The notes beneath the pieces were generated by a model. That model did not search any database, was not told where the DNA came from, and saw only the letters and a program-made list of their open reading frames with translations. Source: an uncultured Eubacteriales bacterium (GTDB taxonomy: Bacteria > Acidobacteriota > Aminicenantia > Aminicenantales > Saccharicenantaceae). From it: a stretch of DNA of 64,000 bases. Shown here one piece after another: positions 19,717 to 27,545 of this stretch (positions are counted from its first letter, which is position 1; every line of letters begins with the position of its first letter). The stretch spans positions 3,761 to 67,760 of the forward strand of contig CAZFZU010000006.1 of NCBI GenBank assembly GCA_964523615.1, written 5' to 3'. Position numbers and translations under genes: made by a program.

Positions 19717-20838
19717 CTACCACGACGCGCCGATTTTTTTAAGGGTCTCGTCGATCCGGGCCAGGGCCGCCCGGAGATAGCCCGCTTCGGGACCGTAGCC
19801 GAAACGGAGGTAGCCGTCGAGCTCGAAGTGGTCCCCGGGGACGGCCAGGACGCTCTGTTCCCGGATGAGGCGCTCGACGAGCTCGGTCGAATTGACCTCC
19901 AGGCCGTAGCGGGCGAAGCAGATGGCCCCGGCCTTGGGCGGCCGGAAGGAGAACAGCCCGGCGTGGGCCCGGAGCCAGGCCTCCAGGACGGGGAAGTTGG
20001 CGTTGAGGATGCCCCGGGTCCGGGCCAGGATGCGTTCCCTGGCCGCCGGTTCCAGGGCGAGGGCGGCCAGCCGGTCGCTCAGGGCCGAGGGCGAGATGGT
20101 CGTGTAATCGTGGTAGGGCCAGGTGCGCTTGACGACGTCCTCGGGCCCGGCGATCCAGCCGATGCGCAGGCCCGGCAGGCCGTAGGCCTTGGACAGGCCG
20201 TTGACGACGAGCACGCGTTCGGCCAGGCCCCAGAAGCTCGGGGTGGTGACGCCGGAGAGCTCGGCCCCCCGGTAGACCTCGTCGGCCAGGATCCAGGCCC
20301 CGGCCTTCTCGGCCAGGCCGACGACGGCTTTCATGACCTCGGGCGTGAGGACCGAGCCGGTCGGGTTGTTGGGATTGGTCAGGACGATGAGCTTGGTCTT
20401 CGGGGTCACCAGCCGGGCCATCTCGTCGAGGTCGGGCTGCCAGTCGAGCTCCTCCCTCAGGGTGAAGGTCTTGACCTTGGCCCCGAAGGCCCGCATCAGG
20501 CCGCCCATCTGCATGTAATTGGGCAGCTCGAAGAGGACCTCGTCGCCGGGCTCGATGAGGCTCCACATGAGCAGGAAGTTGGCCTCCGAGGAGCCGGCCG
20601 TGGTCAGGATCTGCTCCAGGCCGGCGCCGGGGTAGAGCGCGGCGATGCGCTCGCGCAGGGGGACGGTGCCGTTCGTCTGGGTGTAGCCGAGCTCGACGCG
20701 CGTGAGCTCCTCGAGCTGGGCCGGGGTCAGGAGCTCCGCCAGGGTCATGGGGTGGACGCCGCTCTCGGACAGGTTGTAGTCGACGACGTTCTCCCAGACC
20801 GACTGCATCCGCTCCATCTTGAACAGGTCGATCTTCAT
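19717..20838 (-). CDS. PLP-dependent aminotransferase class I/II
   Basis: NPNNPTG, DEVY, NGLSKAYGLPGLRIGW; begins 22 nt after the DUF106-like gene. Confidence 0.92.
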   Translation of the reverse strand: MKIDLFKMERMQSVWENVVDYNLSESGVHPMTLAELLTPAQLEELTRVELGYTQTNGTVPLRERIAALYPGAGLEQILTTAGSSEANFLLMWSLIEPGDEVLFELPNYMQMGGLMRAFGAKVKTFTLREELDWQPDLDEMARLVTPKTKLIVLTNPNNPTGSVLTPEVMKAVVGLAEKAGAWILADEVYRGAELSGVTTPSFWGLAERVLVVNGLSKAYGLPGLRIGWIAGPEDVVKRTWPYHDYTTISPSALSDRLAALALEPAARERILARTRGILNANFPVLEAWLRAHAGLFSFRPPKAGAICFARYGLEVNSTELVERLIREQSVLAVPGDHFELDGYLRFGYGPEAGYLRAALARIDETLKKIGASW

Positions 20839-20860: not shown

Positions 20861-21688
20861 TCAGATCTCGACCTTGAGGACGCCCTTCAGCGCGAAACCG
20901 AGGGCGATCGACAGGACGAGGTAGGCGACGAGCCAGTGGACGTTCGAACCGAGCACCGGAAGGCCGGCGGCCGGGTAGAGGACCTCGACGGAACGGATGG
21001 GTCCGCCTCCGGGCAGAGGGGGTTCGCCGGGGAAGAGGACGCGCTTCCCGAAGGAGCCCCGGGACGCCAGCGCGGAGATCCGGGCCAGCCGGTCCCCGCC
21101 GGCGACGACGGTCTTGCCGAAGGCCAGGGAGCCGGCCCGGACGACGAGGCGTCCCGACCCGGGCCCGACGGCCCGGACGCGCCAGACGGCTTCGCCCAGG
21201 TCGGCGACGCGGACGACGGGGGACGTGACCTCGATGAACCCGGGAGTCTCGAGGGCCAGGTCGAGCGAGGCGGGATCGACGCCCGGCTCGAAGCGGGCCT
21301 TGACCAGGGTCTCCCGCCCCGGCGAGAGCGGCGCCCGGTCGTACCAGACCGAGAGCTGGGCCAGGATGAGGACGAGCGGCACGATCATGACGGCCAGGGG
21401 CCGCAGGTTGGCGGCAAGATAGGCCAGGTTGGCCTTGAGCACGCCGGCCTGGGCCGACAGGGTCACCCGCATGTCGTCCTTGTACAACCGCATCTCCAGC
21501 AGGTGGGCCTTGATGCGGTCCTTGGCCCGGCGGATGGCGGCCTGGTTCGAGGTCAGCTTGTAGACCTCGAGCATGAGCAGGGCCGTCAGGAGCGAGACGG
21601 CGATCAGCCCGGCCCACGGGGACATCCCCCGGAAGGGCCAGAGGACCGCCCCGACGAGCCCGCCGAAGACGACGTTGACCGCGTGCAT
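20861..21688 (-). CDS. DUF106/EMC3/TMCO1-like (Oxa1-superfamily) three-TM membrane protein with inserted soluble domain
   Basis: ATG 21688 after GAGGA. TM1 (GLIAVSLLTALLML), basic coiled coil (NQAAIRRAKDRIKAHLL), TM2 beginning RPLAVMIVPLVLIL, beta-rich insert, terminal TM3 (WLVAYLVLSIALGFALK). Confidence 0.6.
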   Translation of the reverse strand: MHAVNVVFGGLVGAVLWPFRGMSPWAGLIAVSLLTALLMLEVYKLTSNQAAIRRAKDRIKAHLLEMRLYKDDMRVTLSAQAGVLKANLAYLAANLRPLAVMIVPLVLILAQLSVWYDRAPLSPGRETLVKARFEPGVDPASLDLALETPGFIEVTSPVVRVADLGEAVWRVRAVGPGSGRLVVRAGSLAFGKTVVAGGDRLARISALASRGSFGKRVLFPGEPPLPGGGPIRSVEVLYPAAGLPVLGSNVHWLVAYLVLSIALGFALKGVLKVEI

Positions 21689-21701: not shown

Positions 21702-21784
21702 AACCTGGATTAGTCATGAAAACGCCGTGTTCCTCCATCACAACAGACGATCCAAGACCGGGAATCTCATGAATCGTCCAGGTT
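21702..21784. repeat. 18-bp imperfect inverted repeat spanning the intergenic gap
   Basis: AACCTGGATTAGTCATGA (21702-21719) and TCATGAATCGTCCAGGTT (21767-21784); 15/18 match, each arm containing TCATGA. Confidence 0.7.
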
Positions 21785-21974
21785 AGCCGATGTAGCCAAG
21801 CCCCTTGAGCTTCTTCTTGATCTCCTCTTCGGAGTCGGCCTCCTCGATCTTGGCCACTTCTTTCTCGAGGCAGTGGGCGACGAACTCCTCGACCGAGGAG
21901 TAGCCGGACATCTCGGCGTACTTCTTGATCTTGGCGAAGAGAGCCTTGTCGACGGCGACTTTCACGGTGGCCAT
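21783..21974 (-). CDS. 63-aa ribbon-helix-helix-like protein with C-terminal LKGLGYI tail
   Basis: AAGGAG RBS; VKVAV strand, two helices joined by GYSSVEEF; ends EEEIKKKLKGLGYIG. Confidence 0.85.
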   Translation of the reverse strand: MATVKVAVDKALFAKIKKYAEMSGYSSVEEFVAHCLEKEVAKIEEADSEEEIKKKLKGLGYIG

Positions 21975-21992
21975 GGCGATGCTCCTTGTCCG

Positions 21993-24008
21993 TCAGGTCT
22001 TGGCGAGAACGTCCCGGCCGATCATGCCGGCCGGCTTCTCGGCGTCGAAGAGGCTCAGCACGGAGGCCGTCAAGTCCTCCAGGGCCGGGGCCTCGGCCGT
22101 GAACTTCCTGTTCGCGAAGGCGATGCCCGGCAGGACGTCCGGGGCCGACATGTGGTCGCCGCTCCAGCGCTGGGTGTTGTCCTCGAGGACTTCGCGCGGG
22201 AAGCCGCCGAGCGGCGACTGCCAGGAGATGCGGTAGCCCGGGGCGAAGCCCAGGACGATGTCCGGGGCCTGCTCCAGGTTGGGGCCGCGGTAGGCCTCTT
22301 TGGCGACGAAGGCCCTGCGGACGACCTGATCGCCCGTGACGGGGTCCCGCAAGGCCTCGAGCCGGCGGACGATCTCCCGGACGAGATTGTCCTTGTCGGC
22401 TCCCGGCTCCACGGCGCCCTGGCCCTCGCGCCCGCGCTCGTTGATGTAGAGGCCGTTGAGGCCCATGCCGTAGGCCCGCGTCTTCGACCAGTCCGTGTTG
22501 TCGAAGTAGGCCGACTCCTCCTGCTTCCAGGGCCGTTTCAACCGGTGGAAACCCTCGCGGACGAGCCAGGTGTTGAGGTTGAAGCCGCGGCGGAAGGTGT
22601 TGAAGCCGTGGTCCGACATGACCAGGACGACCGTGTCCTTGTCGGCTTTTTTCAAGGCCAGGTCGAGGGCCCGGTCCATTTCGCCGTAGGTCCGGGCGAT
22701 GACGTCGCCGAAGCGGGCGGCCAGCTTTTCGTCGTAGGCCGGGTGGCCGGGATCGGTCAGGCGCCAGAACATGTGCTGGCGTTGGTCGGCGTTGGAAAAG
22801 TAGTAGAACAGCAGCCCCGCGTCGAGGCGGCCGAGCTCGTATTCGAGCATGGCCATGCTCTCCTCGTAGACGAGGTTGTCGAGATGGAGGAACTCCTCCT
22901 CGTCGAGAACGCCGTTCTCCAGGGCGCTCGTGTCGGCCGGCAGCCCCTTGGTGAAATAGGGGCCGAAGCGCCTCTCGAGGTCCCGGGCGTAGGACTCCGG
23001 CGTGGACAGGGGCAGGGCCGGGCGGGCCGGGTCCATGTGGATGGGCGAGACGTAGAGCTTGAACTTGGGCCGGACCTCCTTGAGGTAGAACAGGCAGATG
23101 CCGTGGACGCTCTGGGTCGGCATGAGCCCGAAGCGGACCCTCTGCCAGCCGCTCCACTCGCCCTGGCGGAGGACGAACTCGCGGCCCTGGAGGACGATCT
23201 TGGCCGCGGCGTGCTCGGGGTCGAGGAAGACCTGGAAGGGCACGGACGCCTCCGGGGAGCCGACCTTGAAGGCGTTCGTCGGGCCCTTGAGCTCGGCCTC
23301 GACCCGGTCGCCGACGACGAAGACGTCGTAGACCCGGCCGCCGCCGCCGGCCTCCTGGACGACGGACGCCGAGGCGTTCGTGTAATAGCTGAAGATGCCG
23401 TACGAGCCCTTGAGGTCGGGCGTGTTCATGCCGGCGAGCGTCCGCTGCTCCGACTCGACGGGCGGGTAGTTCGAGGGCATCTTGAAGACGGTCGCCGGGA
23501 CGCCGCGGTCCTCGAGGACCTGCCAGAAGGCCCGGCCCTTGCGGAGGTTCCGGACCTGGCCGCCCGAGAGGGGGATGAGCGTCTTGCCGAGGCGGATGGT
23601 CTTCCCGCCGCCGGTCGTCTCGGTGGCCGAGAAGACGGGGACGTAGGTCTTGGGATCGCGGTTGAAGAAATCGAAGATGGCGTGTCCGCCGGGGTCCATG
23701 CCGGTGATGAAGTTGGACCAGGCCACCGGCGTCTGGGGCGGCAGGCTGGTGCCGAGCGGCCGGAAGTCCCCGCCCCGCTCGAGGAGCCGCCGGAAGGCCG
23801 GCAGGCGGCCCTCGTCGATCCAGCGTTTCGTCAGGACGGGGTCGAGGCCGTCGAGACCGAGCACGATGACCTTCTTCCCGTCCCGGGACGGGCCGAACGA
23901 GCGGGGGGAGAGCCGGGCCGCTCCGCCCAGCCCCAGGGCCGCCGAGGCGGCCACGCCGGCCTTGAGGAATTCACGCCGCGAGAGCCGCGCGCGCCCGTGT
24001 CCGCTCAT
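21993..24008 (-). CDS. Alkaline phosphatase superfamily (COG3379-like phosphodiesterase) protein, Tat signal
   Basis: ATGA overlap at 24005-24008; SRREFLK; GLDG, PPQT(nucleophile)PVAW, DQRQH, SDHG, GDH. Confidence 0.9.
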   Translation of the reverse strand: MSGHGRARLSRREFLKAGVAASAALGLGGAARLSPRSFGPSRDGKKVIVLGLDGLDPVLTKRWIDEGRLPAFRRLLERGGDFRPLGTSLPPQTPVAWSNFITGMDPGGHAIFDFFNRDPKTYVPVFSATETTGGGKTIRLGKTLIPLSGGQVRNLRKGRAFWQVLEDRGVPATVFKMPSNYPPVESEQRTLAGMNTPDLKGSYGIFSYYTNASASVVQEAGGGGRVYDVFVVGDRVEAELKGPTNAFKVGSPEASVPFQVFLDPEHAAAKIVLQGREFVLRQGEWSGWQRVRFGLMPTQSVHGICLFYLKEVRPKFKLYVSPIHMDPARPALPLSTPESYARDLERRFGPYFTKGLPADTSALENGVLDEEEFLHLDNLVYEESMAMLEYELGRLDAGLLFYYFSNADQRQHMFWRLTDPGHPAYDEKLAARFGDVIARTYGEMDRALDLALKKADKDTVVLVMSDHGFNTFRRGFNLNTWLVREGFHRLKRPWKQEESAYFDNTDWSKTRAYGMGLNGLYINERGREGQGAVEPGADKDNLVREIVRRLEALRDPVTGDQVVRRAFVAKEAYRGPNLEQAPDIVLGFAPGYRISWQSPLGGFPREVLEDNTQRWSGDHMSAPDVLPGIAFANRKFTAEAPALEDLTASVLSLFDAEKPAGMIGRDVLAKT

Positions 24009-26131
24009 GCTTTCTTTCCCTTCGCTTCCCGCGAGAGGCCGGCGACGTCGACCAGGCCCCGGCCGTCCATATGGGCCGGCGGGGTCAGGCCGAAGAGCTC
24101 CAGGACGGTCGGGGCCAGGTCCATGATGGAGGGCTGGTCGGTCCTGAGGCGCAGGCTCGAGAACAGCACGCCCGGGACCAGGGCCGGGTCGATGCAGTGG
24201 TCGCCGCTCCAGGCCTTGACGTTGTCCTCGATGACCGTGTCGTCGACGATGCCCGTGACGCCGTCCCAGGAGGCCCGATATCCCTCGTTGTACCCGATGA
24301 TGAGGTCCGGGGCGTTGTCCCGGTACGGCCCGGCGTAGACGGCGTCGCGGTCGTAGACGCGGGTGACGGCCGGGGGGCCGCTCGGCCCGTCGCGCAGGGC
24401 CTCGAGCTTGCGGGCCAGCTCGGCCTTGAGGGCCGCGGCTTCGGCGCCGGGGGCGACGGTGCCGCGCGCCTCCCGGTCCCTGAGGTTGAGGTAGATGCCG
24501 CCGAGCCCCAGGCCGTAGGCCCGGGTCCGCCCCCAGTCGACGTCCTTGAACCATTCGCCGCTCGTCTCCCGTCCCTCGTTCAGGGCCAGGTAGCCGTTCT
24601 TCCGGAGCCAGGAGTTGAGGTTGACCCCCCGGCGGAAAGACTTGAAGCCATGGTCGGACATGACGAACAGGGCGTCGCGGGGGCCGAGCCCCTCGGCGAC
24701 CCGGCCGACGAGCCCGTCCATCTTCTTATAGAGATCCTCGACGACGGCCGCGCTCATCCGGGCCGGACCGGCCTTGAGGGCCGGATGGGCTTTGTCGAGG
24801 TAGCGGAAGAACATGTGCTGGACGCTGTCGGTCGTCTCGAAGACGATCGCGACCAGGCCCTTCGAAGTCTTGGCCAGGGCGTTGCGGAGCATGGCCTCCC
24901 AGGCCTCGTGGTTGTCGTAGGTCAGCTCGAGGAAGGCCTTCTCGTCGAGGGCGCCCTCGTTGAGGGCCCAGGTGTCGTTGGCCTCGCCCAGGGTGATGTA
25001 ACGGCCCAGGAGCTTGGCCAGGTAGACCGAGTAGATGAACGGATGGGAGATGGGCAGGGCGGGCTTCTCGGGGTCGATGTTGAGGGGCGTGACGTACATC
25101 TCGAACGGGGGCTCGAGCGAGGCGATGCGGAAGCGGCAGATGCCCCGGACCTTGACCCCCAGGCCGGCCCGGAAAACGACCGGCGTCCACGGGCTGAAGG
25201 TCTTCTCTTTGAGGAAGAACGGCTTCTCGCGGCCGACGGCGACGCGGGCCCCGCCGGCCGCCCGGTCGATGGCCACGGTCAGGGGGACGCGGATCTCCTC
25301 GGGGACCCTGAGCAGCGAGTTCTCCGGGCCCGCGAGCTCGGTCCGGATGACGTCGCCCTCGCGGCGGACCAGGACGGCCACGCCGCCCTCGTGCTTGCGG
25401 ACCTTCTCGGCGTCCTCGGTGAAGAAGGCGAACGTCCCCTGGCTGCCTTTGAGGTCGGGGGCGCACATGCCGGAGAGCAGGTGGCCCTTGAACTTCTCCG
25501 GCGGGAAGGTGATGGGCACGCGCAGGACCGTGGCCGGCACGCCCTTCTCGCCGAGGACCTTCCAGAACGGCACGCTCCGGCGCATCCCCCGGACCTCGGG
25601 CTTGGAGAGCGGGACGAGATACTTGCCCAGGGCCAAGGTCCGCTTGGGCCGGCCGATGCGGGCCGAGGACAGGTCCGGGAGATAGGTCCGGGGGTCGCGG
25701 CTGAGGAAGTCGAAGATGTTGTGCTTGGAGGGCTCCGAGCCGGTCATAAAGGACGACCAGGCGACGGGGGAGATGGCCGGGGTCGTCGTCCGCAGGCGGG
25801 CGTAGGCCCCGTCCTTGCGCAGTCGGGCCAGGTTCGGGAGCTTGCCCTCGGCCATGAACTTCTCGGCCAGCGTCGGTTCCAAGCCGTCGAGCCCGAGGAT
25901 GACGACGCGGTCGACCCGGCTGCGGCCGAGGGCCCGCCGGCCGCGGACCGTCCGCCACAGGAAGCGGAACGGCCAGGACAGGAACGAGAACAGGGCCAGG
26001 ACGAAGGTCAGGAAGAGGACCAGGAAGGAGGACAGGAAGGCGAAGCCGGCCCCAGGCCCGATGTAGCCGGCGAGAGGGGAGGCCAGGGCGAGGAGGGCGG
26101 CCGCCGCGAGGATCGTGCCCGTCCGCTTCAT
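24005..26131 (-). CDS. Alkaline phosphatase superfamily protein with signal peptide, YIGPG motif and TM anchor
   Basis: TGATG overlap at 26129-26133; MKRTGTILAAAALLALASPLAG-YIGPGAGFAF-TM-basic stretch; GLDG, PAISPVAW, DSVQH, SDHG, GDH. Confidence 0.9.
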   Translation of the reverse strand: MKRTGTILAAAALLALASPLAGYIGPGAGFAFLSSFLVLFLTFVLALFSFLSWPFRFLWRTVRGRRALGRSRVDRVVILGLDGLEPTLAEKFMAEGKLPNLARLRKDGAYARLRTTTPAISPVAWSSFMTGSEPSKHNIFDFLSRDPRTYLPDLSSARIGRPKRTLALGKYLVPLSKPEVRGMRRSVPFWKVLGEKGVPATVLRVPITFPPEKFKGHLLSGMCAPDLKGSQGTFAFFTEDAEKVRKHEGGVAVLVRREGDVIRTELAGPENSLLRVPEEIRVPLTVAIDRAAGGARVAVGREKPFFLKEKTFSPWTPVVFRAGLGVKVRGICRFRIASLEPPFEMYVTPLNIDPEKPALPISHPFIYSVYLAKLLGRYITLGEANDTWALNEGALDEKAFLELTYDNHEAWEAMLRNALAKTSKGLVAIVFETTDSVQHMFFRYLDKAHPALKAGPARMSAAVVEDLYKKMDGLVGRVAEGLGPRDALFVMSDHGFKSFRRGVNLNSWLRKNGYLALNEGRETSGEWFKDVDWGRTRAYGLGLGGIYLNLRDREARGTVAPGAEAAALKAELARKLEALRDGPSGPPAVTRVYDRDAVYAGPYRDNAPDLIIGYNEGYRASWDGVTGIVDDTVIEDNVKAWSGDHCIDPALVPGVLFSSLRLRTDQPSIMDLAPTVLELFGLTPPAHMDGRGLVDVAGLSREAKGKKA

Positions 26132-27423
26132 CAGTAGTTCTTGAGGATGATCGGGGCCAGGTCGGCGATGCGGAGGTCGTCGCCGTGGTCCTCGACCGAC
26201 CAGAAGAAGGCGTCGTCCCAGGTGTGCATGCCTTGGAGGCCGGAGCGGCCGAAGACCTCCTTCCGGCGGACCGAGCCCTTCATGTCGAAGCCGGGCTCGC
26301 CCACGACGACGAGGTCCGGGCCCTTGGCGGCGTGCGGACCGTGGTAGACCTCCTCGTTGAAGAAGACCTTCTTGACGACGCGCCGGCCCTCGTAGGTCAG
26401 CTGCTCGAGCTTGCCGGCGATCTCCTGGCGCAGGGCCCGGCGGGCGCTCCGCGCGATCGTGCCCTTGGGGAAGCGGTCCTTGAGGTGGATGTAGATCCGG
26501 TTGGGGTCGAGAGCGAAGGCCTTGGTCCGGCCGTGGATGTCGCCGAGCCCCGTCGGCTCGGGCTTGAGGAAACGGAGGTAGCCGTTCTGCTCGAGCCAAG
26601 CGTTGAGATAGACCTCCTGGACGATGCCCGTGAAGCCGTGGTCGGACAGGATGTAGAAACCGGCGTAGGTGTTGGTGAGCTTGTGGTAGGCGGCGACGAT
26701 CTTGCCGATGAGACGGTCGATGTGGCGGTAGAAGTCGAGAAAGCGCTCATGGGAGGGGTGGCCGGGGTCCTCGTAGGCGCGCCACAGGAAGTGGTGGAGA
26801 CGGTCGGTCCCCGTGACGACGTACTCGAAGTAGTCCCAGTCCCCTTCCCAGAAGTGGTTGAGGGCTTTTTGCCCCCCGGCCATGGTCTTGGTCAGCTCCT
26901 GCCAGAGGACCTCGGGGCTCTCGCGGCATTTGAGGATGTCGACGTCGATCTGGTAGCCCATCTGCTCGAGGGCGGCCCGGTAGGTCGTCGGCCAGACGGC
27001 CTTGGCCAGCTCCAGGGCCACGAAACCGGACACGAGGACGCCCTCGATCTCGCGGGCCGGGTAGGTCGAGGGCTGGTTGATGACGATGCTCCGGCGGCCC
27101 TTGGCGCCCAGGCGGTCCCAGAGGGTGGGGGCCTTGACGTCGAGGTAATTGGGGAAGCGGATGTCGTAGGATCGGGGCTTGAAGTCGGTGAAGCCGAAGA
27201 TCCCATGGCTGCCCGAGTCCGTCCCGGTCATGAAATCCGTCCAGGACACGGCCGAGATCTCGGGCAGGCTGGCCTTCATCCGGTGGAGCCGGCCGATGTC
27301 CATGAGGCGGGCCATGGTCGACATGATCCCCCGGCGGGCCAGCTCGGCGATCATGCCGTAGGGCACGCCGTCGAGGCCGATGACGCAGGCTTTTTCAGTC
27401 TTTTTTCGCTTCGCTACGGCCAT
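26131..27423 (-). CDS. Alkaline phosphatase superfamily protein, no export signal
   Basis: GLDG, PEISAVSW, DRLHH, SDHG, GMH; lacks the long central insert of the two paralogs. Confidence 0.9.
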   Translation of the reverse strand: MAVAKRKKTEKACVIGLDGVPYGMIAELARRGIMSTMARLMDIGRLHRMKASLPEISAVSWTDFMTGTDSGSHGIFGFTDFKPRSYDIRFPNYLDVKAPTLWDRLGAKGRRSIVINQPSTYPAREIEGVLVSGFVALELAKAVWPTTYRAALEQMGYQIDVDILKCRESPEVLWQELTKTMAGGQKALNHFWEGDWDYFEYVVTGTDRLHHFLWRAYEDPGHPSHERFLDFYRHIDRLIGKIVAAYHKLTNTYAGFYILSDHGFTGIVQEVYLNAWLEQNGYLRFLKPEPTGLGDIHGRTKAFALDPNRIYIHLKDRFPKGTIARSARRALRQEIAGKLEQLTYEGRRVVKKVFFNEEVYHGPHAAKGPDLVVVGEPGFDMKGSVRRKEVFGRSGLQGMHTWDDAFFWSVEDHGDDLRIADLAPIILKNY

Positions 27424-27453: not shown

Positions 27454-27482
27454 ATTTTACCTCAATCCGGCCGTCCGGTCAA
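27454..27482 (-). promoter_or_regulatory. Promoter of the AlkP operon
   Basis: TTGACC-17 nt-TAAAAT. Confidence 0.75.
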
Positions 27483-27545
27483 CCGGTCCGGGTTGACTTT
27501 GCCGGGGCGGAGGGATTAAATGGGGGCTTCGAAAAGAGAGGCGAC

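What the first reader, a model, noticed from the sequence alone, without database searches (positions are those of the whole stretch)
21783..21974. RHH-like mini-protein carries the 'LGY' tail that all three AlkP paralogs lack
Seen: the protein ends ADSEEEIKKKLKGLGYIG, while the three enzymes end ...ILKNY, ...EAKGKKA and ...DVLAKT. From my recall of the family, related phosphodiesterases and sulfatases often end in an acidic EE..RL.xLGY tail of unknown role. Inference: the tail was split off and fused to a dimerising RHH scaffold, so it could be supplied in trans as an activator or cross-linker. Alternatively, it is a regulator that senses enzyme occupancy.
Basis: partly seen in the sequence, partly recalled or inferred. 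Interest (0 to 1): 0.62.

Follow-up and report, generated by a model that had tools for sequence, protein, structure and literature searches.

The report
RHH mini-protein with enzyme-type LGY tail
A tiny, highly conserved protein, encoded between phosphatase-like enzymes and a membrane protein, ends in the same short peptide that many related enzymes carry on their own ends, so it probably supplies that peptide to its tail-less neighbours.

Summary
ORF 21783-21974 (-) encodes a 63-aa protein ending KKKLKGLGYIG, and the three AlkP-family paralogs upstream have no such tail.

- **Fold.** The protein has a ribbon-helix-helix (RHH) fold, and its tail is the most conserved part of a large unnamed family.
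Two motif-anchored, family-blind scans of about 185,000 species genomes show that ...L-x-x-LGY-(I/V/L)-x-COOH is a real C-terminal motif. The Tyr lies exactly three residues from the end.
- **Carriers.** Of about 200 classifiable carriers, about 120 are AlkP-superfamily enzymes (PF01663, PF00884) and about 70 are RHH minis.
- **Subtype.** The mini's GLGYI form is the PF01663 subtype, found on cytoplasmic AlkP1-like homologs behind a flexible linker.
- **Synteny.** In essentially all 160 loci sampled from at least seven phyla, the mini lies in one module: TM-anchored AlkP2, exported AlkP3, mini, and a DUF106-type membrane protein. AlkP2 orthologs never carry the tail (0/141) and AlkP3 orthologs almost never do (1/147).
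- **Converse.** None of 28 loci with tail-bearing AlkPs holds a mini.

The best reading is a dimeric adaptor that presents the LGY peptide in trans. Binding was not tested, and a role in DNA regulation is not excluded.

The parts
21783..21974 (-). Gene for the 63-aa RHH-LGY mini-protein, stop codon included
   Evidence: ORF and translation. RBS AAGGAG upstream. 1368 homologs and 345 clusters at 50% identity. Present in all 160 related loci.
21840..21974 (-). RHH core, residues 1-45: beta-strand K-V-A-V-D, helix 1, G-Y-S-S turn, helix 2
   Evidence: Pfam RHH_1 E 0.0058, which is below the gathering score. The family profile hits the NikR RHH domain in PDB at E 0.0033. AF2 model pLDDT 82.8. All top Foldseek hits are RHH proteins, with NikR at probability 0.99.
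21786..21836 (-). LGY tail, residues 47-63: DSEEEIKKKLKGLGYIG-COOH
   Evidence: The most conserved stretch of the family. It aligns end to end with the enzyme-tail profile. It has the same register (Tyr, then two residues, then stop) as 90 of 118 enzyme tails.
21993..24008 (-). AlkP3: exported (TAT signal) PF01663 enzyme, 671 aa, tail-less, ends DVLAKT
   Evidence: Pfam PF01663 and TAT_signal. Orthologs P0121-P0240. An RR motif is present in 94/125 orthologs and Sec or lipoprotein signals in the others. 1/147 orthologs carries a tail.
24005..26131 (-). AlkP2: PF01663 enzyme, 708 aa, with an N-terminal signal-like helix, the motif AYIGPGAGFA, a TM helix and an Arg-rich stretch. The catalytic domain is inferred to be cytoplasmic. 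Tail-less, ends EAKGKKA.
   Evidence: Pfam. Conserved N-terminus. 0/141 orthologs carry a tail. Its start and stop codons overlap those of AlkP1 and AlkP3.
26131..27423 (-). AlkP1: soluble PF01663 enzyme, 430 aa, tail-less, ends ILKNY. Part of the operon only in Aminicenantes-like genomes.
   Evidence: Pfam and synteny. Homologs elsewhere (22-29% identical over the whole catalytic domain) carry ...RLSGLGYIS in cis.
20861..21688 (-). Membrane protein, 275 aa: DUF106/Ylp1-type (Oxa1 superfamily) helices with an Ig-like periplasmic domain inserted. It follows the mini gene directly wherever the locus extends that far.
   Evidence: No Pfam hit. JGI names it 'DUF106 family'. The family profile hits PDB 5c8j (MJ0480) at E 1.7e-5 over TM1, the coiled coil and TM2. 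AF2 pLDDT 85.7. The beta domain matches Ig-like folds. Synteny.
27454..27497 (-). Candidate operon promoter (TTGACC-17-TAAAAT) with an overlapping perfect palindrome GTCAACC-N6-GGTTGAC (27478-27497)
   Evidence: Consensus scan, sequence. The palindrome recurs in 4 close relatives only. Weak evidence; function untested.

Best explanation
**What it is.** The gene encodes a cytoplasmic ribbon-helix-helix protein with no signal peptide. By analogy with all RHH proteins it should be an obligate dimer. Its last roughly 15 residues are the 'LGY tail', ...S-E-E-E-phi-x-x-(K/R)-L-x-G-L-G-Y-I-x-COOH.

**What the tail is.** The same peptide is otherwise found at the extreme C-terminus of AlkP-superfamily enzymes, behind a variable and presumably flexible linker. 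The GLGYI form sits mainly on cytoplasmic COG3379-type PF01663 enzymes. The RSLGY form sits mainly on exported sulfatases.

**How it most likely works.** I take the tail to be a tethered docking peptide for AlkP-fold enzymes or their assemblies. The mini-protein would be a dedicated third subunit of a conserved four-gene membrane module. That module consists of TM-anchored AlkP2 facing the cytoplasm, exported AlkP3, the mini, and a DUF106-type membrane protein. The RHH dimer would present two copies of the peptide in trans to a tail-less partner on the cytoplasmic side. AlkP2 is the most likely partner and the conserved cytosolic coiled coil of the DUF106-type protein is the second candidate. 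This would assemble, cross-link or switch on the module. Like RHH antitoxins, the protein may also bind DNA and autoregulate.

**Shown:** the gene is real and under strong constraint; the RHH fold; identity and register of the motif; its near-exclusive association with AlkP-superfamily enzymes; strict synteny with tail-less AlkPs.

**Inferred:** dimerisation, physical docking, which partner is bound, the effect on activity, and any DNA binding.
For: **Conservation.** The tail is the most conserved part of the family: L59 and Y61 are invariant, and L56, G58 and G60 are at least 90% conserved in 68 diverse members. The linker before it varies in length.

**Sulfatase-type scan.** A family-blind DNA scan for [EQ]L[EQ]xLR[ST]LGY found the Tyr followed by exactly two residues and a stop in 90 of 118 cases. 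After removing the tail, the C-terminal cases classify as 73 PF00884, 4 PF01663, 9 unknown and 8 truncated. Pfam checks on 20 of them gave 16 sulfatase, 3 Phosphodiest and 1 no hit.

**Mini-type scan.** A scan for L[R/S]GLGYIx-stop gave 69 RHH minis, 34 PF01663, 9 PF00884, 2 unknown and 4 truncated. All 10 carriers checked in Pfam belong to the AlkP superfamily.

**Cis-tail enzymes are homologs of the neighbours.** The cis-tail PF01663 enzymes are homologs of AlkP1/2/3 (E down to 1e-42). Those whose N-termini were read start directly with the catalytic core and have no signal peptide.

**Profile match.** hhalign of the mini family against the enzyme tails gives probability 92%, E 6.7e-7, end to end.

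**Synteny.** The order AlkP2-AlkP3-mini-memb on one strand holds in essentially all 160 loci from Acidobacteriota (several classes), Gemmatimonadota, Sumerlaeota, Planctomycetota, Thermodesulfobacteriota and Nitrospirota. Only these four genes are conserved across the loci.

**Tail-less neighbours.** 0/141 AlkP2 and 1/147 AlkP3 orthologs carry the tail, against 164/164 minis. 0/28 cis-tail AlkP loci contain a mini or memb.

**A second example of the same pattern.** In L044 an APS kinase with an LGY tail lies between two tail-less AlkP1-like genes.

**Structural precedent.** The best full-length structural matches are RHH antitoxins, whose C-terminal extension binds a protein partner: ParD 6x0a and KacA 5zgn (TMq 0.79). 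1y9b also matches at TMq 0.80.

**Rate of change.** Within Acidobacteriota the mini stays 61-75% identical while AlkP2 and AlkP3 are 43-55% and memb is 33-44%.
Against: - No binding was modelled or measured. Only monomer AF2 was available, and it draws the tail as a continuation of helix 2 with falling confidence (pLDDT 72, then 58).
- One locus (L044) has a cis tail on AlkP3 and still keeps the mini. The mini is therefore not simply a substitute for a lost AlkP3 tail.
- Most sulfatase-type tails are on exported lipoproteins, whereas the mini is cytoplasmic. The two tail subtypes may therefore have different receptors.
- A few carriers are not AlkP-fold proteins: an APS kinase, CysD and small TPR-like lipoproteins. 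The receptor need not be the AlkP fold itself.
- The RHH features used for DNA contact are conserved: basic residues on the strand and the G-x-S turn. A regulatory role is therefore not excluded.
- Genome-wide presence or absence could not be computed.
Confidence: 0.5

Rival explanations
1. The mini is primarily a transcription factor: an RHH repressor or autoregulator of the AlkP operon. The tail would serve for higher-order oligomerisation, or as a sensor that binds an enzyme or ligand and so modulates DNA binding. The second option is the first reader's 'occupancy sensor'.
For: - RHH fold with sequence and structure similarity to NikR, CopG and Arc. One family member passes the Pfam RHH_1 gathering score and 8/68 hit it at E <= 0.01.
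- The strand keeps outward-facing basic residues (K5, K7) and the G-Y-S-S turn that contacts phosphate in other RHH proteins.
- JGI names some members 'CopG/Arc/MetJ family transcriptional regulator'.
- In the window a perfect palindrome GTCAACC-N6-GGTTGAC overlaps the -35 box of the only good sigma-70-like promoter, upstream of AlkP1.
Against: - The protein is conserved across phyla, yet no 8-10-mer is shared by the 300 nt upstream of the operon in 74 non-Aminicenantes loci (the best k-mer is in 9/74). Inverted repeats are not clearly enriched over shuffles.
- The full palindrome recurs in only 4 close relatives.
- Strand position 7 alternates between K and A among near-identical Aminicenantes orthologs, while the tail is invariant.
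- The gene is third or fourth in the operon, always directly upstream of the membrane protein.
- A DNA-only role does not explain why the tail equals a motif otherwise carried mainly by AlkP-superfamily enzymes.
Confidence: 0.25
2. The tail does not address the AlkP enzymes. Instead it targets the membrane or the DUF106-type protein. It could be an amphipathic cationic C-terminal helix that binds the membrane, as the MinD-type targeting sequence does. Or it could dock on the invariant cytosolic coiled coil of the DUF106-type protein, as Get3 docks on Get1. The mini would then be a cytosolic partner of an insertase-like protein.
For: - The mini gene lies directly upstream of the DUF106-type gene wherever the locus extends that far.
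- The most conserved residues of that protein lie at the end of TM1 and in the cytosolic coiled coil: K44, T46, S47, Q49, I52, A61, L68 and D71.
- It is homologous to MJ0480/Ylp1. Oxa1-superfamily members use this coiled coil to bind cytosolic factors (PMC5868721).
- The tail has an amphipathic pattern, with I52, L56, L59 and I62 against K53-55 and K57. Its resemblance to the MinD tail is from my own knowledge.
Against: - Membrane-targeting helices are usually poorly conserved in sequence, whereas G-L-G-Y and its fixed distance from the carboxylate are invariant.
- Cis-tail PF01663 enzymes occur in 28 loci without any DUF106-type gene nearby, and in phyla where the module was not seen among the loci I sampled, such as Actinomycetota and Chloroflexota.
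- Many tail carriers are already lipid-anchored lipoproteins.
Confidence: 0.15
3. The mini is the antitoxin of a type II toxin-antitoxin pair, with the downstream membrane protein as the toxin, or it is a component of a defence system.
For: The architecture, an RHH followed by a C-terminal partner-binding extension, and the best full-length fold matches (ParD, KacA, AtaR, TacA) are those of antitoxins. It is a small gene directly upstream of a larger one.
Against: - The four-gene order is fixed in all sampled phyla, not the patchy, mobile distribution typical of toxin-antitoxin pairs.
- The downstream protein is a DUF106-type membrane protein, not a known toxin.
- None of the five proteins matches PADLOC.
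Confidence: 0.03

Closest known systems
RHH type II antitoxins with C-terminal partner-binding extensions (ParD, KacA/TacA/AtaR)
   Same: A small RHH dimerisation and DNA-binding core followed by a short C-terminal segment that binds a protein encoded next to it. These are the best full-length Foldseek matches (6x0a; 5zgn, TMq 0.79).
   Different: There is no toxin neighbour, no mobile or patchy distribution and no PADLOC hit. The tail is an invariant short linear motif shared with enzymes, not a toxin-wrapping segment.
NikR / CopG / Arc ribbon-helix-helix transcription factors
   Same: Fold and weak sequence similarity of residues 1-46: NikR E 0.0033, Foldseek probability 0.99, and Pfam RHH_1 just below threshold.
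   Different: It lacks NikR's C-terminal metal-binding domain (63 aa in total). No operator conserved across phyla was found. Its conserved tail has no counterpart in those families.
Uncharacterised COG3379-type PF01663 'alkaline phosphatase family' enzymes and PF00884 sulfatases that end in the LGY tail
   Same: The same C-terminal peptide in the same register...EE-phi-x-x-R-L-x-G-L-G-Y-I-x-COOH. The PF01663 carriers are homologs of the window's AlkP1/2/3.
   Different: There the peptide is in cis, behind a 20-40-residue variable linker on a catalytic domain of 450-650 aa. Here it sits on a 45-residue RHH scaffold beside tail-less enzymes. No Pfam model covers the tail. No PDB match places it on an AlkP-superfamily enzyme. 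The motif terms I searched in the literature returned nothing relevant.
Other C-terminal docking peptides read together with the free carboxylate (proteasome-activator HbYX, PTS1/Pex5, EEVD/TPR, PDZ ligands). This comparison is from my own knowledge.
   Same: A short invariant motif at a fixed distance from the C-terminus, portable between unrelated proteins.
   Different: The sequence differs: Tyr is antepenultimate here and penultimate in HbYX. The receptor is unknown, and none of these systems is linked to AlkP enzymes.
Get3-Get1/WRB and the archaeal DUF106 protein Ylp1 (MJ0480)
   Same: The downstream gene is a DUF106-type Oxa1-superfamily homolog with a cytosolic coiled coil. A small cytosolic dimer encoded beside it recalls a cytosolic factor docking on that coiled coil (PMC5868721).
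   Different: The mini has no ATPase and no client-binding groove. The bacterial protein carries an extra Ig-like periplasmic domain. No insertase activity has been shown.

Membership tests
Ribbon-helix-helix (CopG/Arc/MetJ) superfamily | Sequence match to a curated RHH model at its threshold | tested here: not met
   For the window protein, Pfam RHH_1 scores 17 bits against a gathering score of 20.5 (E 0.0058). 8/68 family members hit at E <= 0.01 and one (P0367) passes with 21.7 bits. The family profile hits the NikR RHH domain in PDB at E 0.0033.
Ribbon-helix-helix (CopG/Arc/MetJ) superfamily | Fold: N-terminal strand, helix A, G-x-S/T turn, helix B | tested here: met
   AF2 model with pLDDT 82.8: extended 1-9, helix 10-23, turn G24-Y25-S26-S27, helix from 28. 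All leading Foldseek hits are RHH proteins (NikR probability 0.99; Arc, CopG, ParD).
Ribbon-helix-helix (CopG/Arc/MetJ) superfamily | Dimer with a two-stranded antiparallel sheet that binds operator DNA | not testable with these tools
   Only monomer prediction was available. There is a candidate palindrome at 27478-27497, but no operator conserved across phyla.
NikR-type metal-responsive regulator | C-terminal ACT-like tetramerisation and metal-binding domain | tested here: not met
   The protein is 63 aa. The NikR match covers only residues 1-46, and the NCBIfam NikR model scores 13 bits against a cut-off of 83.
Type II antitoxin | Adjacent toxin gene and a patchy, mobile distribution | tested here: not met
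   The neighbours are always AlkP3 and a DUF106-type membrane protein, in all sampled phyla. No PADLOC hits.
LGY-tail carriers (motif class defined here) | ...L-x-x-L-G-Y-(I/V/L)-x-COOH: Tyr antepenultimate, an amphipathic helix before it, and an acidic S/T-x-E-E cluster upstream | tested here: met
   The mini ends SEEEIKKKLKGLGYIG. 90/118 enzyme-motif occurrences share the register. Upstream preferences are L(-16), S/T(-15) and E(-13). hhalign probability 92%.
LGY-tail carriers (motif class defined here) | The carrier is an AlkP-superfamily enzyme | tested here: not met
   The mini has no AlkP domain. It is the main non-enzyme carrier class: 69 of 118 GLGYI tails.
DUF106 / Ylp1 / EMC3 / TMCO1 (Oxa1 superfamily), for the downstream membrane protein | TM1, cytosolic coiled coil, TM2 and TM3 core, homologous to MJ0480 | tested here: met
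   The family profile hits 5c8j (MJ0480) at E 1.7e-5 over profile positions 18-119. AF2 helices at 24-46, 49-68, 73-116 and 252-267. JGI name 'DUF106 family'. Caveats: no Pfam hit at E < 0.1, and Foldseek was dominated by the inserted Ig-like domain, so the helical core was not matched by fold.
TAT redox-enzyme maturation chaperone or hitchhiker partner | The partner enzyme always carries a twin-arginine signal | tested here: not met
   Only 94/125 AlkP3 orthologs have an RR motif. The others have Sec or lipoprotein signals while the mini is retained.

The most novel reading that the evidence does not exclude
The LGY tail is a general, so far undescribed C-terminal docking or regulatory peptide of AlkP-superfamily enzymes, including sulfatases and COG3379-type phosphodiesterases in more than ten bacterial phyla. 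The RHH-LGY mini-protein is its free-standing, dimeric, trans-acting form. It would couple a membrane-anchored cytoplasmic AlkP enzyme to a bacterial DUF106-type (Oxa1-superfamily) membrane protein. On this reading the peptide is a portable ligand for the AlkP fold that can be supplied in cis or in trans, also by partner enzymes such as an APS kinase.
Probability: 0.3. Interest if true: 0.8.

Novelty: new variant of a known kind. Interest (0 to 1): 0.66.

Why it matters
AlkP-superfamily enzymes (sulfatases, phosphodiesterases) are very numerous in Acidobacteriota, Planctomycetota and related phyla, and most are uncharacterised.

- **A handle on the enzymes.** A conserved C-terminal peptide read at a fixed distance from the carboxylate points to a common receptor or regulatory mechanism that nobody seems to have described. 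I found no Pfam or NCBIfam model for it, no PDB match that places it on an AlkP-superfamily enzyme, and no relevant paper for the terms I searched. A 16-residue peptide and a 63-residue protein are easy reagents for finding that receptor.
- **A new module.** The work defines a four-gene module conserved across at least seven phyla. It joins two AlkP-type enzymes on opposite faces of the membrane with a bacterial DUF106-type protein. That family is described as archaeal and eukaryotic (PMC5868721).
- **A possible pathway link.** Sulfate-activation genes and sulfatases recur nearby, which hints at an envelope sulfation or phospho-transfer pathway.

Tried and rejected
1. **Homolog search with AlkP3.** It returned only close orthologs, so it said nothing about tails in distant relatives. 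I replaced it with motif-anchored DNA scans.
2. **Apparent fusions.** Long proteins seemed to fuse the mini to AlkP3 or to the membrane protein (P0249, P0253, P0244, P0317, P0344, P0378). Read in full, they are frameshift or read-through gene calls, not real fusions. Long ORFs in the mini's frame over AlkP3 are out-of-frame high-GC artefacts.
3. **TAT hitchhiking of the mini with AlkP3.** Rejected as a general mechanism: 31/125 orthologs lack an RR motif, and those I read use Sec or lipoprotein signals.
4. **Operator conserved across phyla.** None was found upstream of the operon, and inverted repeats are not clearly enriched.
5. **Defence system or PglZ-like.** No PADLOC hits.
6. **A solved structure with the tail.** The profile found only chance-level matches (uL13 C-terminus, RNAP alpha-CTD) and no AlkP enzyme.
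7. **Literature.** 'LGY motif', 'LRSLGY' and RHH plus 'alkaline phosphatase family' plus Aminicenantes returned nothing relevant.
8. **Pfam DUF7557.** Its hits cover only the RHH part and lie below threshold.
9. **Fold search for the membrane protein.** The Ig-like insert dominated the result. Homology to DUF106 therefore rests on the sequence profile.
10. **The search for related loci with the 68-member alignment.** It failed for lack of a conserved stretch. Sub-alignments worked.
11. **Sequencing runs.** The stretch is held by sludge, digester, wastewater and soil metagenome runs, all typed as DNA (guessed). I made no RNA-specific search and did no expression analysis.
Full report
**1. The observation**

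The minus-strand ORF 21783-21974 encodes MATVKVAVDKALFAKIKKYAEMSGYSSVEEFVAHCLEKEVAKIEEADSEEEIKKKLKGLGYIG. A good ribbon-binding site, AAGGAG, lies upstream of its ATG.

It is the fourth gene of a co-directional cluster, and the start and stop codons of the AlkP genes overlap:
- AlkP1 (26131-27423, 430 aa, ends ILKNY)
- AlkP2 (24005-26131, 708 aa, ends EAKGKKA)
- AlkP3 (21993-24008, 671 aa, TAT signal, ends DVLAKT)
- the mini-protein
- a 275-aa membrane protein (20861-21688)
- a class I/II aminotransferase (19717-20838)

All three AlkPs are Pfam PF01663. No other ORF in the window ends in an LGY-like tail.

**2. A real and strongly constrained gene**

The organism is a Candidatus Aminicenantes bacterium, judging by the names attached to near-identical proteins.
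- The mini-protein has 1368 database matches. The best 120 are 83-100% identical, and 116 of them are exactly 63 aa.
- An exhaustive search of 50%-identity representatives finds 345 clusters. Most listed representatives are stand-alone proteins of 61-72 aa, and the full-length ones I read keep the same C-terminus.
- In an alignment of 68 diverse members, L59 and Y61 are invariant. G24, Y25, S27, E30, E37, L56, G58 and G60 are at least 90% conserved. The segment between helix 2 and the tail takes insertions of 0-8 residues.

The tail is therefore an ancestral and the most conserved part of the family. It sits behind a short variable linker.

**3. Fold**

- Pfam gives only a sub-threshold RHH_1 hit: 17 bits against a cut-off of 20.5. 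8 of 68 members hit RHH_1 at E <= 0.01 and one passes the threshold.
- The family profile matches the NikR RHH domain in PDB (E 0.0033, residues 1-46).
- AlphaFold2 with the family alignment gives pLDDT 82.8. The N-terminus is extended, helix 1 spans 10-23, and helix 2 starts at 28 and runs on through the tail to L59. Confidence falls towards the end.
- All leading Foldseek hits are RHH proteins. NikR reaches probability 0.99. The best full-length matches include the RHH antitoxins ParD (6x0a) and KacA (5zgn, TMq 0.79), which use a C-terminal extension to bind a partner protein, and 1y9b (TMq 0.80).

'RHH-like' is therefore right. No Pfam or NCBIfam model covers the tail.

**4. Genomic context elsewhere**

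I took the 80 best loci from each.

tblastn and blastp with the window proteins show one order on one strand, AlkP2-AlkP3-mini-membrane protein, in essentially every locus with enough flank. The loci come from Aminicenantes, Vicinamibacteria, Holophagae, Terriglobia, Gemmatimonadota, Sumerlaeota, Planctomycetota (Phycisphaerae, Pirellulales, Gemmataceae, Isosphaeraceae, Kuenenia), Thermodesulfobacteriota and Nitrospirota.

Clustering all ORFs shows that only these four genes are conserved in more than about 140 loci. AlkP1 and the aminotransferase are specific to Aminicenantes-like genomes. Within Acidobacteriota the mini stays 61-75% identical, while the enzymes are 43-55% and the membrane protein 33-44% identical.

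**5. The neighbours**

- **AlkP3** is exported. 94/125 orthologs have an RR motif, and those without that I read have Sec or lipoprotein signals.
- **AlkP2** has a conserved N-terminus: a signal-like helix, the motif A-x-A-Y-(I/V)-GPGAGFA, a TM helix, then an Arg-rich stretch. By the positive-inside rule this puts its catalytic domain in the cytoplasm. That placement is an inference.
- **The membrane protein** has no Pfam hit, but JGI calls many orthologs 'DUF106 family'.
  - A profile of 52 orthologs hits the archaeal DUF106 protein MJ0480 (PDB 5c8j) at E 1.7e-5 over TM1, the coiled coil and TM2.
  - The AF2 model (pLDDT 85.7) shows those helices plus a beta-rich domain of about 130 residues between TM2 and the last TM. 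Foldseek matches that domain to Ig-like folds.
  - Its most conserved residues lie at the cytoplasmic end of TM1 and in the coiled coil.
  - The literature describes DUF106 as archaeal and eukaryotic, and its relatives use the coiled coil to bind cytosolic factors (PMC5868721).

**6. Is the 'LGY tail' of related enzymes real?**

Yes.

*First evidence: the operon loci themselves.* Other proteins there end in ...E(E/Q)LxRL(R/K)SLGY(V/I/L/M)x. They include tandem sulfatases right after the module in Vicinamibacterales, a 535-aa PF01663 enzyme (...EEEERVNRRLAALGYLD), an APS kinase (...EEEEEIKQRLQALGYI) and CysD (...QKLRSLGYM).

- In 90 of the 118 matches with complete downstream sequence, the Tyr is followed by exactly two residues and a stop codon. 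I estimate about 4% for that by chance.
- Positions not fixed by the pattern are also biased: L at -16, S/T at -15, E at -13.
- Of 20 carriers sampled, 16 are Pfam Sulfatase, 3 are Phosphodiest and 1 has no hit.

*Third evidence: a scan for the mini's own version,* L-[R/S]-G-L-G-Y-I-x-stop. After removing the last 12 residues before classification, the 118 tails fall into 69 RHH minis, 34 PF01663 enzymes, 9 sulfatases, 2 unknown and 4 truncated. The first scan gives 73 sulfatases, 4 PF01663, 9 unknown (six are small TPR-like lipoproteins) and 8 truncated. Ten more Pfam checks were all AlkP superfamily.

*Properties of the PF01663 carriers.* They are homologs of AlkP1/2/3, with E down to 1e-42 over the whole catalytic domain. 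Those whose N-termini I read begin directly with the catalytic core ('MKILVIGLD...'), so they are cytoplasmic. They carry the tail after a variable linker of 20-40 residues.

*Profile comparison.* The mini family against the enzyme tails gives 92% probability, E 6.7e-7, aligned to the very last residue.

The mini's GLGYI tail is thus the PF01663 subtype of a portable C-terminal motif.

**7.

- Orthologs beside a mini: 0/141 AlkP2 and 1/147 AlkP3 carry a tail. 164/164 minis do.
- Conversely, 0/28 loci with a cis-tail PF01663 enzyme contain a mini or the DUF106-type gene. Those loci are 8-kb windows.
- The single exception is L044. Its AlkP3 ortholog ends ...SKDEVRALGYVE and the mini is still present.
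- The same locus shows the 'tail on a non-AlkP protein beside tail-less AlkPs' pattern a second time: an APS kinase with an LGY tail lies between two tail-less AlkP1-like genes.

**8. How it most likely works**

The motif is invariant and lies at a fixed distance from the free carboxylate. It sits behind flexible linkers and occurs on proteins whose main common denominator is the AlkP fold, or adjacency to AlkP genes. That is the signature of a tethered docking peptide.

I therefore read the mini as a dimeric adaptor that offers two such peptides in trans within the four-gene module. It has no signal peptide, and AlkP3 is not always a TAT substrate. The partner should therefore be on the cytoplasmic side. 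AlkP2 is the first candidate and the conserved coiled coil of the DUF106-type protein is the second. I put this reading at about 0.5.

The RHH core may also bind DNA, as in antitoxins, where one protein does both jobs. I give a mainly regulatory role 0.25.
- In its favour are the conserved basic strand residues, the G-Y-S-S turn, and a perfect palindrome over the -35 box of the one good promoter in the window.
- Against it are the lack of any operator conserved across 74 loci from other phyla, the variability of strand position 7, and the fact that it leaves the tail unexplained.

A membrane-directed or DUF106-directed role of the tail gets 0.15. A toxin-antitoxin or defence role is unlikely.

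**9. What was not shown**

No binding, no effect on activity, no oligomeric state and no DNA binding were tested. The evolutionary direction ('split off and fused') cannot be decided. No intermediate exists in the data, and the apparent fusions are artefacts.

**10. Comparison with what is known, and novelty**

The fold is a known kind (RHH), and the architecture resembles antitoxins. Three things appear to be undescribed:
- the family itself
- its strict partnership with two AlkP-type enzymes and a bacterial DUF106-type protein
- the LGY tail as a portable C-terminal motif found mainly on AlkP-superfamily enzymes

I found no Pfam or NCBIfam model, no PDB match that places the tail on an AlkP-superfamily enzyme, and nothing relevant in the literature for the terms I searched.

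I rate it a new variant of a known kind, with interest 0.66. The mechanism is plausible and directly testable with a 16-residue peptide.

Noticed in passing
window 20861-21688 (-): The 275-aa membrane protein after the mini is a bacterial DUF106/Ylp1-type (Oxa1-superfamily) homolog (profile hit to MJ0480, E 1.7e-5). It has an Ig-like periplasmic domain inserted between TM2 and the last TM. The literature I read treats DUF106 as archaeal and eukaryotic.
   Followed up: partly
window 25900-26131 (-); L006, L053, L061, L083, L104, L144 and other AlkP2 orthologs: AlkP2 orthologs from all sampled phyla share an N-terminal motif, A-x-A-Y-(I/V)-G-P-G-A-G-F-A, between a signal-like helix and a TM helix, followed by an Arg-rich stretch. 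Its meaning is unknown. It could be a helical hairpin of the kind that YidC-type insertases handle.
   Followed up: no
window 27454-27497 (-): A sigma-70-like promoter (TTGACC-17-TAAAAT) lies upstream of AlkP1. Its -35 box is overlapped by a perfect palindrome, GTCAACC-N6-GGTTGAC. The same palindrome, with a 6- or 7-nt spacer, occurs in L005, L013, L020 and L023.
   Followed up: partly
L087, L090, L094 (minus-strand genes near the module); L044:1799-5400: In Planctomycetota a CysD-CysN-AlkP1-like operon lies beside the module, and CysD ends ...QKLRSLGYM. In L044 an APS kinase with an LGY tail lies between two AlkP1-like genes. Within the 160 loci, CysD occurs in 6, CysN in 6, APS kinase in 7 and sulfatases in 23. 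This hints at a link to sulfate activation. None of these genes is in the window.
   Followed up: partly
L044:7839-9977 (+): This is the only AlkP3 ortholog with a cis LGY tail (...SKDEVRALGYVE), and the mini is still encoded directly downstream. It is an exception to the anticorrelation.
   Followed up: partly
L182, L184, L212, L220, L245, L249 (Myxococcota and Desulfobacterota-like MAGs): ORFs of about 160-190 aa (in L212 a 987-aa stop-to-stop ORF with a lipoprotein-like start late in it) end ...ELE(M/R)LRSLGYVE. L212, the only one scanned, has no Pfam hit, and none matches my AlkP-superfamily reference set. They look like small, possibly TPR-like lipoproteins and form a third, minor class of tail carriers.
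   Followed up: no
L037:10997-18205, and also L048, L065, L080, L083: In Vicinamibacterales one to three tandem sulfatases of about 650-920 aa, each ending ...LQRLRSLGY(V/I)(K/R), follow the DUF106-type gene, directly in L037 and L080.
   Followed up: no
window 21873-24338 (+) and many other long ORFs antisense to or overlapping the AlkP genes: The high G+C content produces very long spurious ORFs on the opposite strand and in other frames, for example 821 aa at 21873-24338. Their counterparts in related loci cluster as 'conserved' families and can mimic AlkP3-mini fusions.
   Followed up: yes
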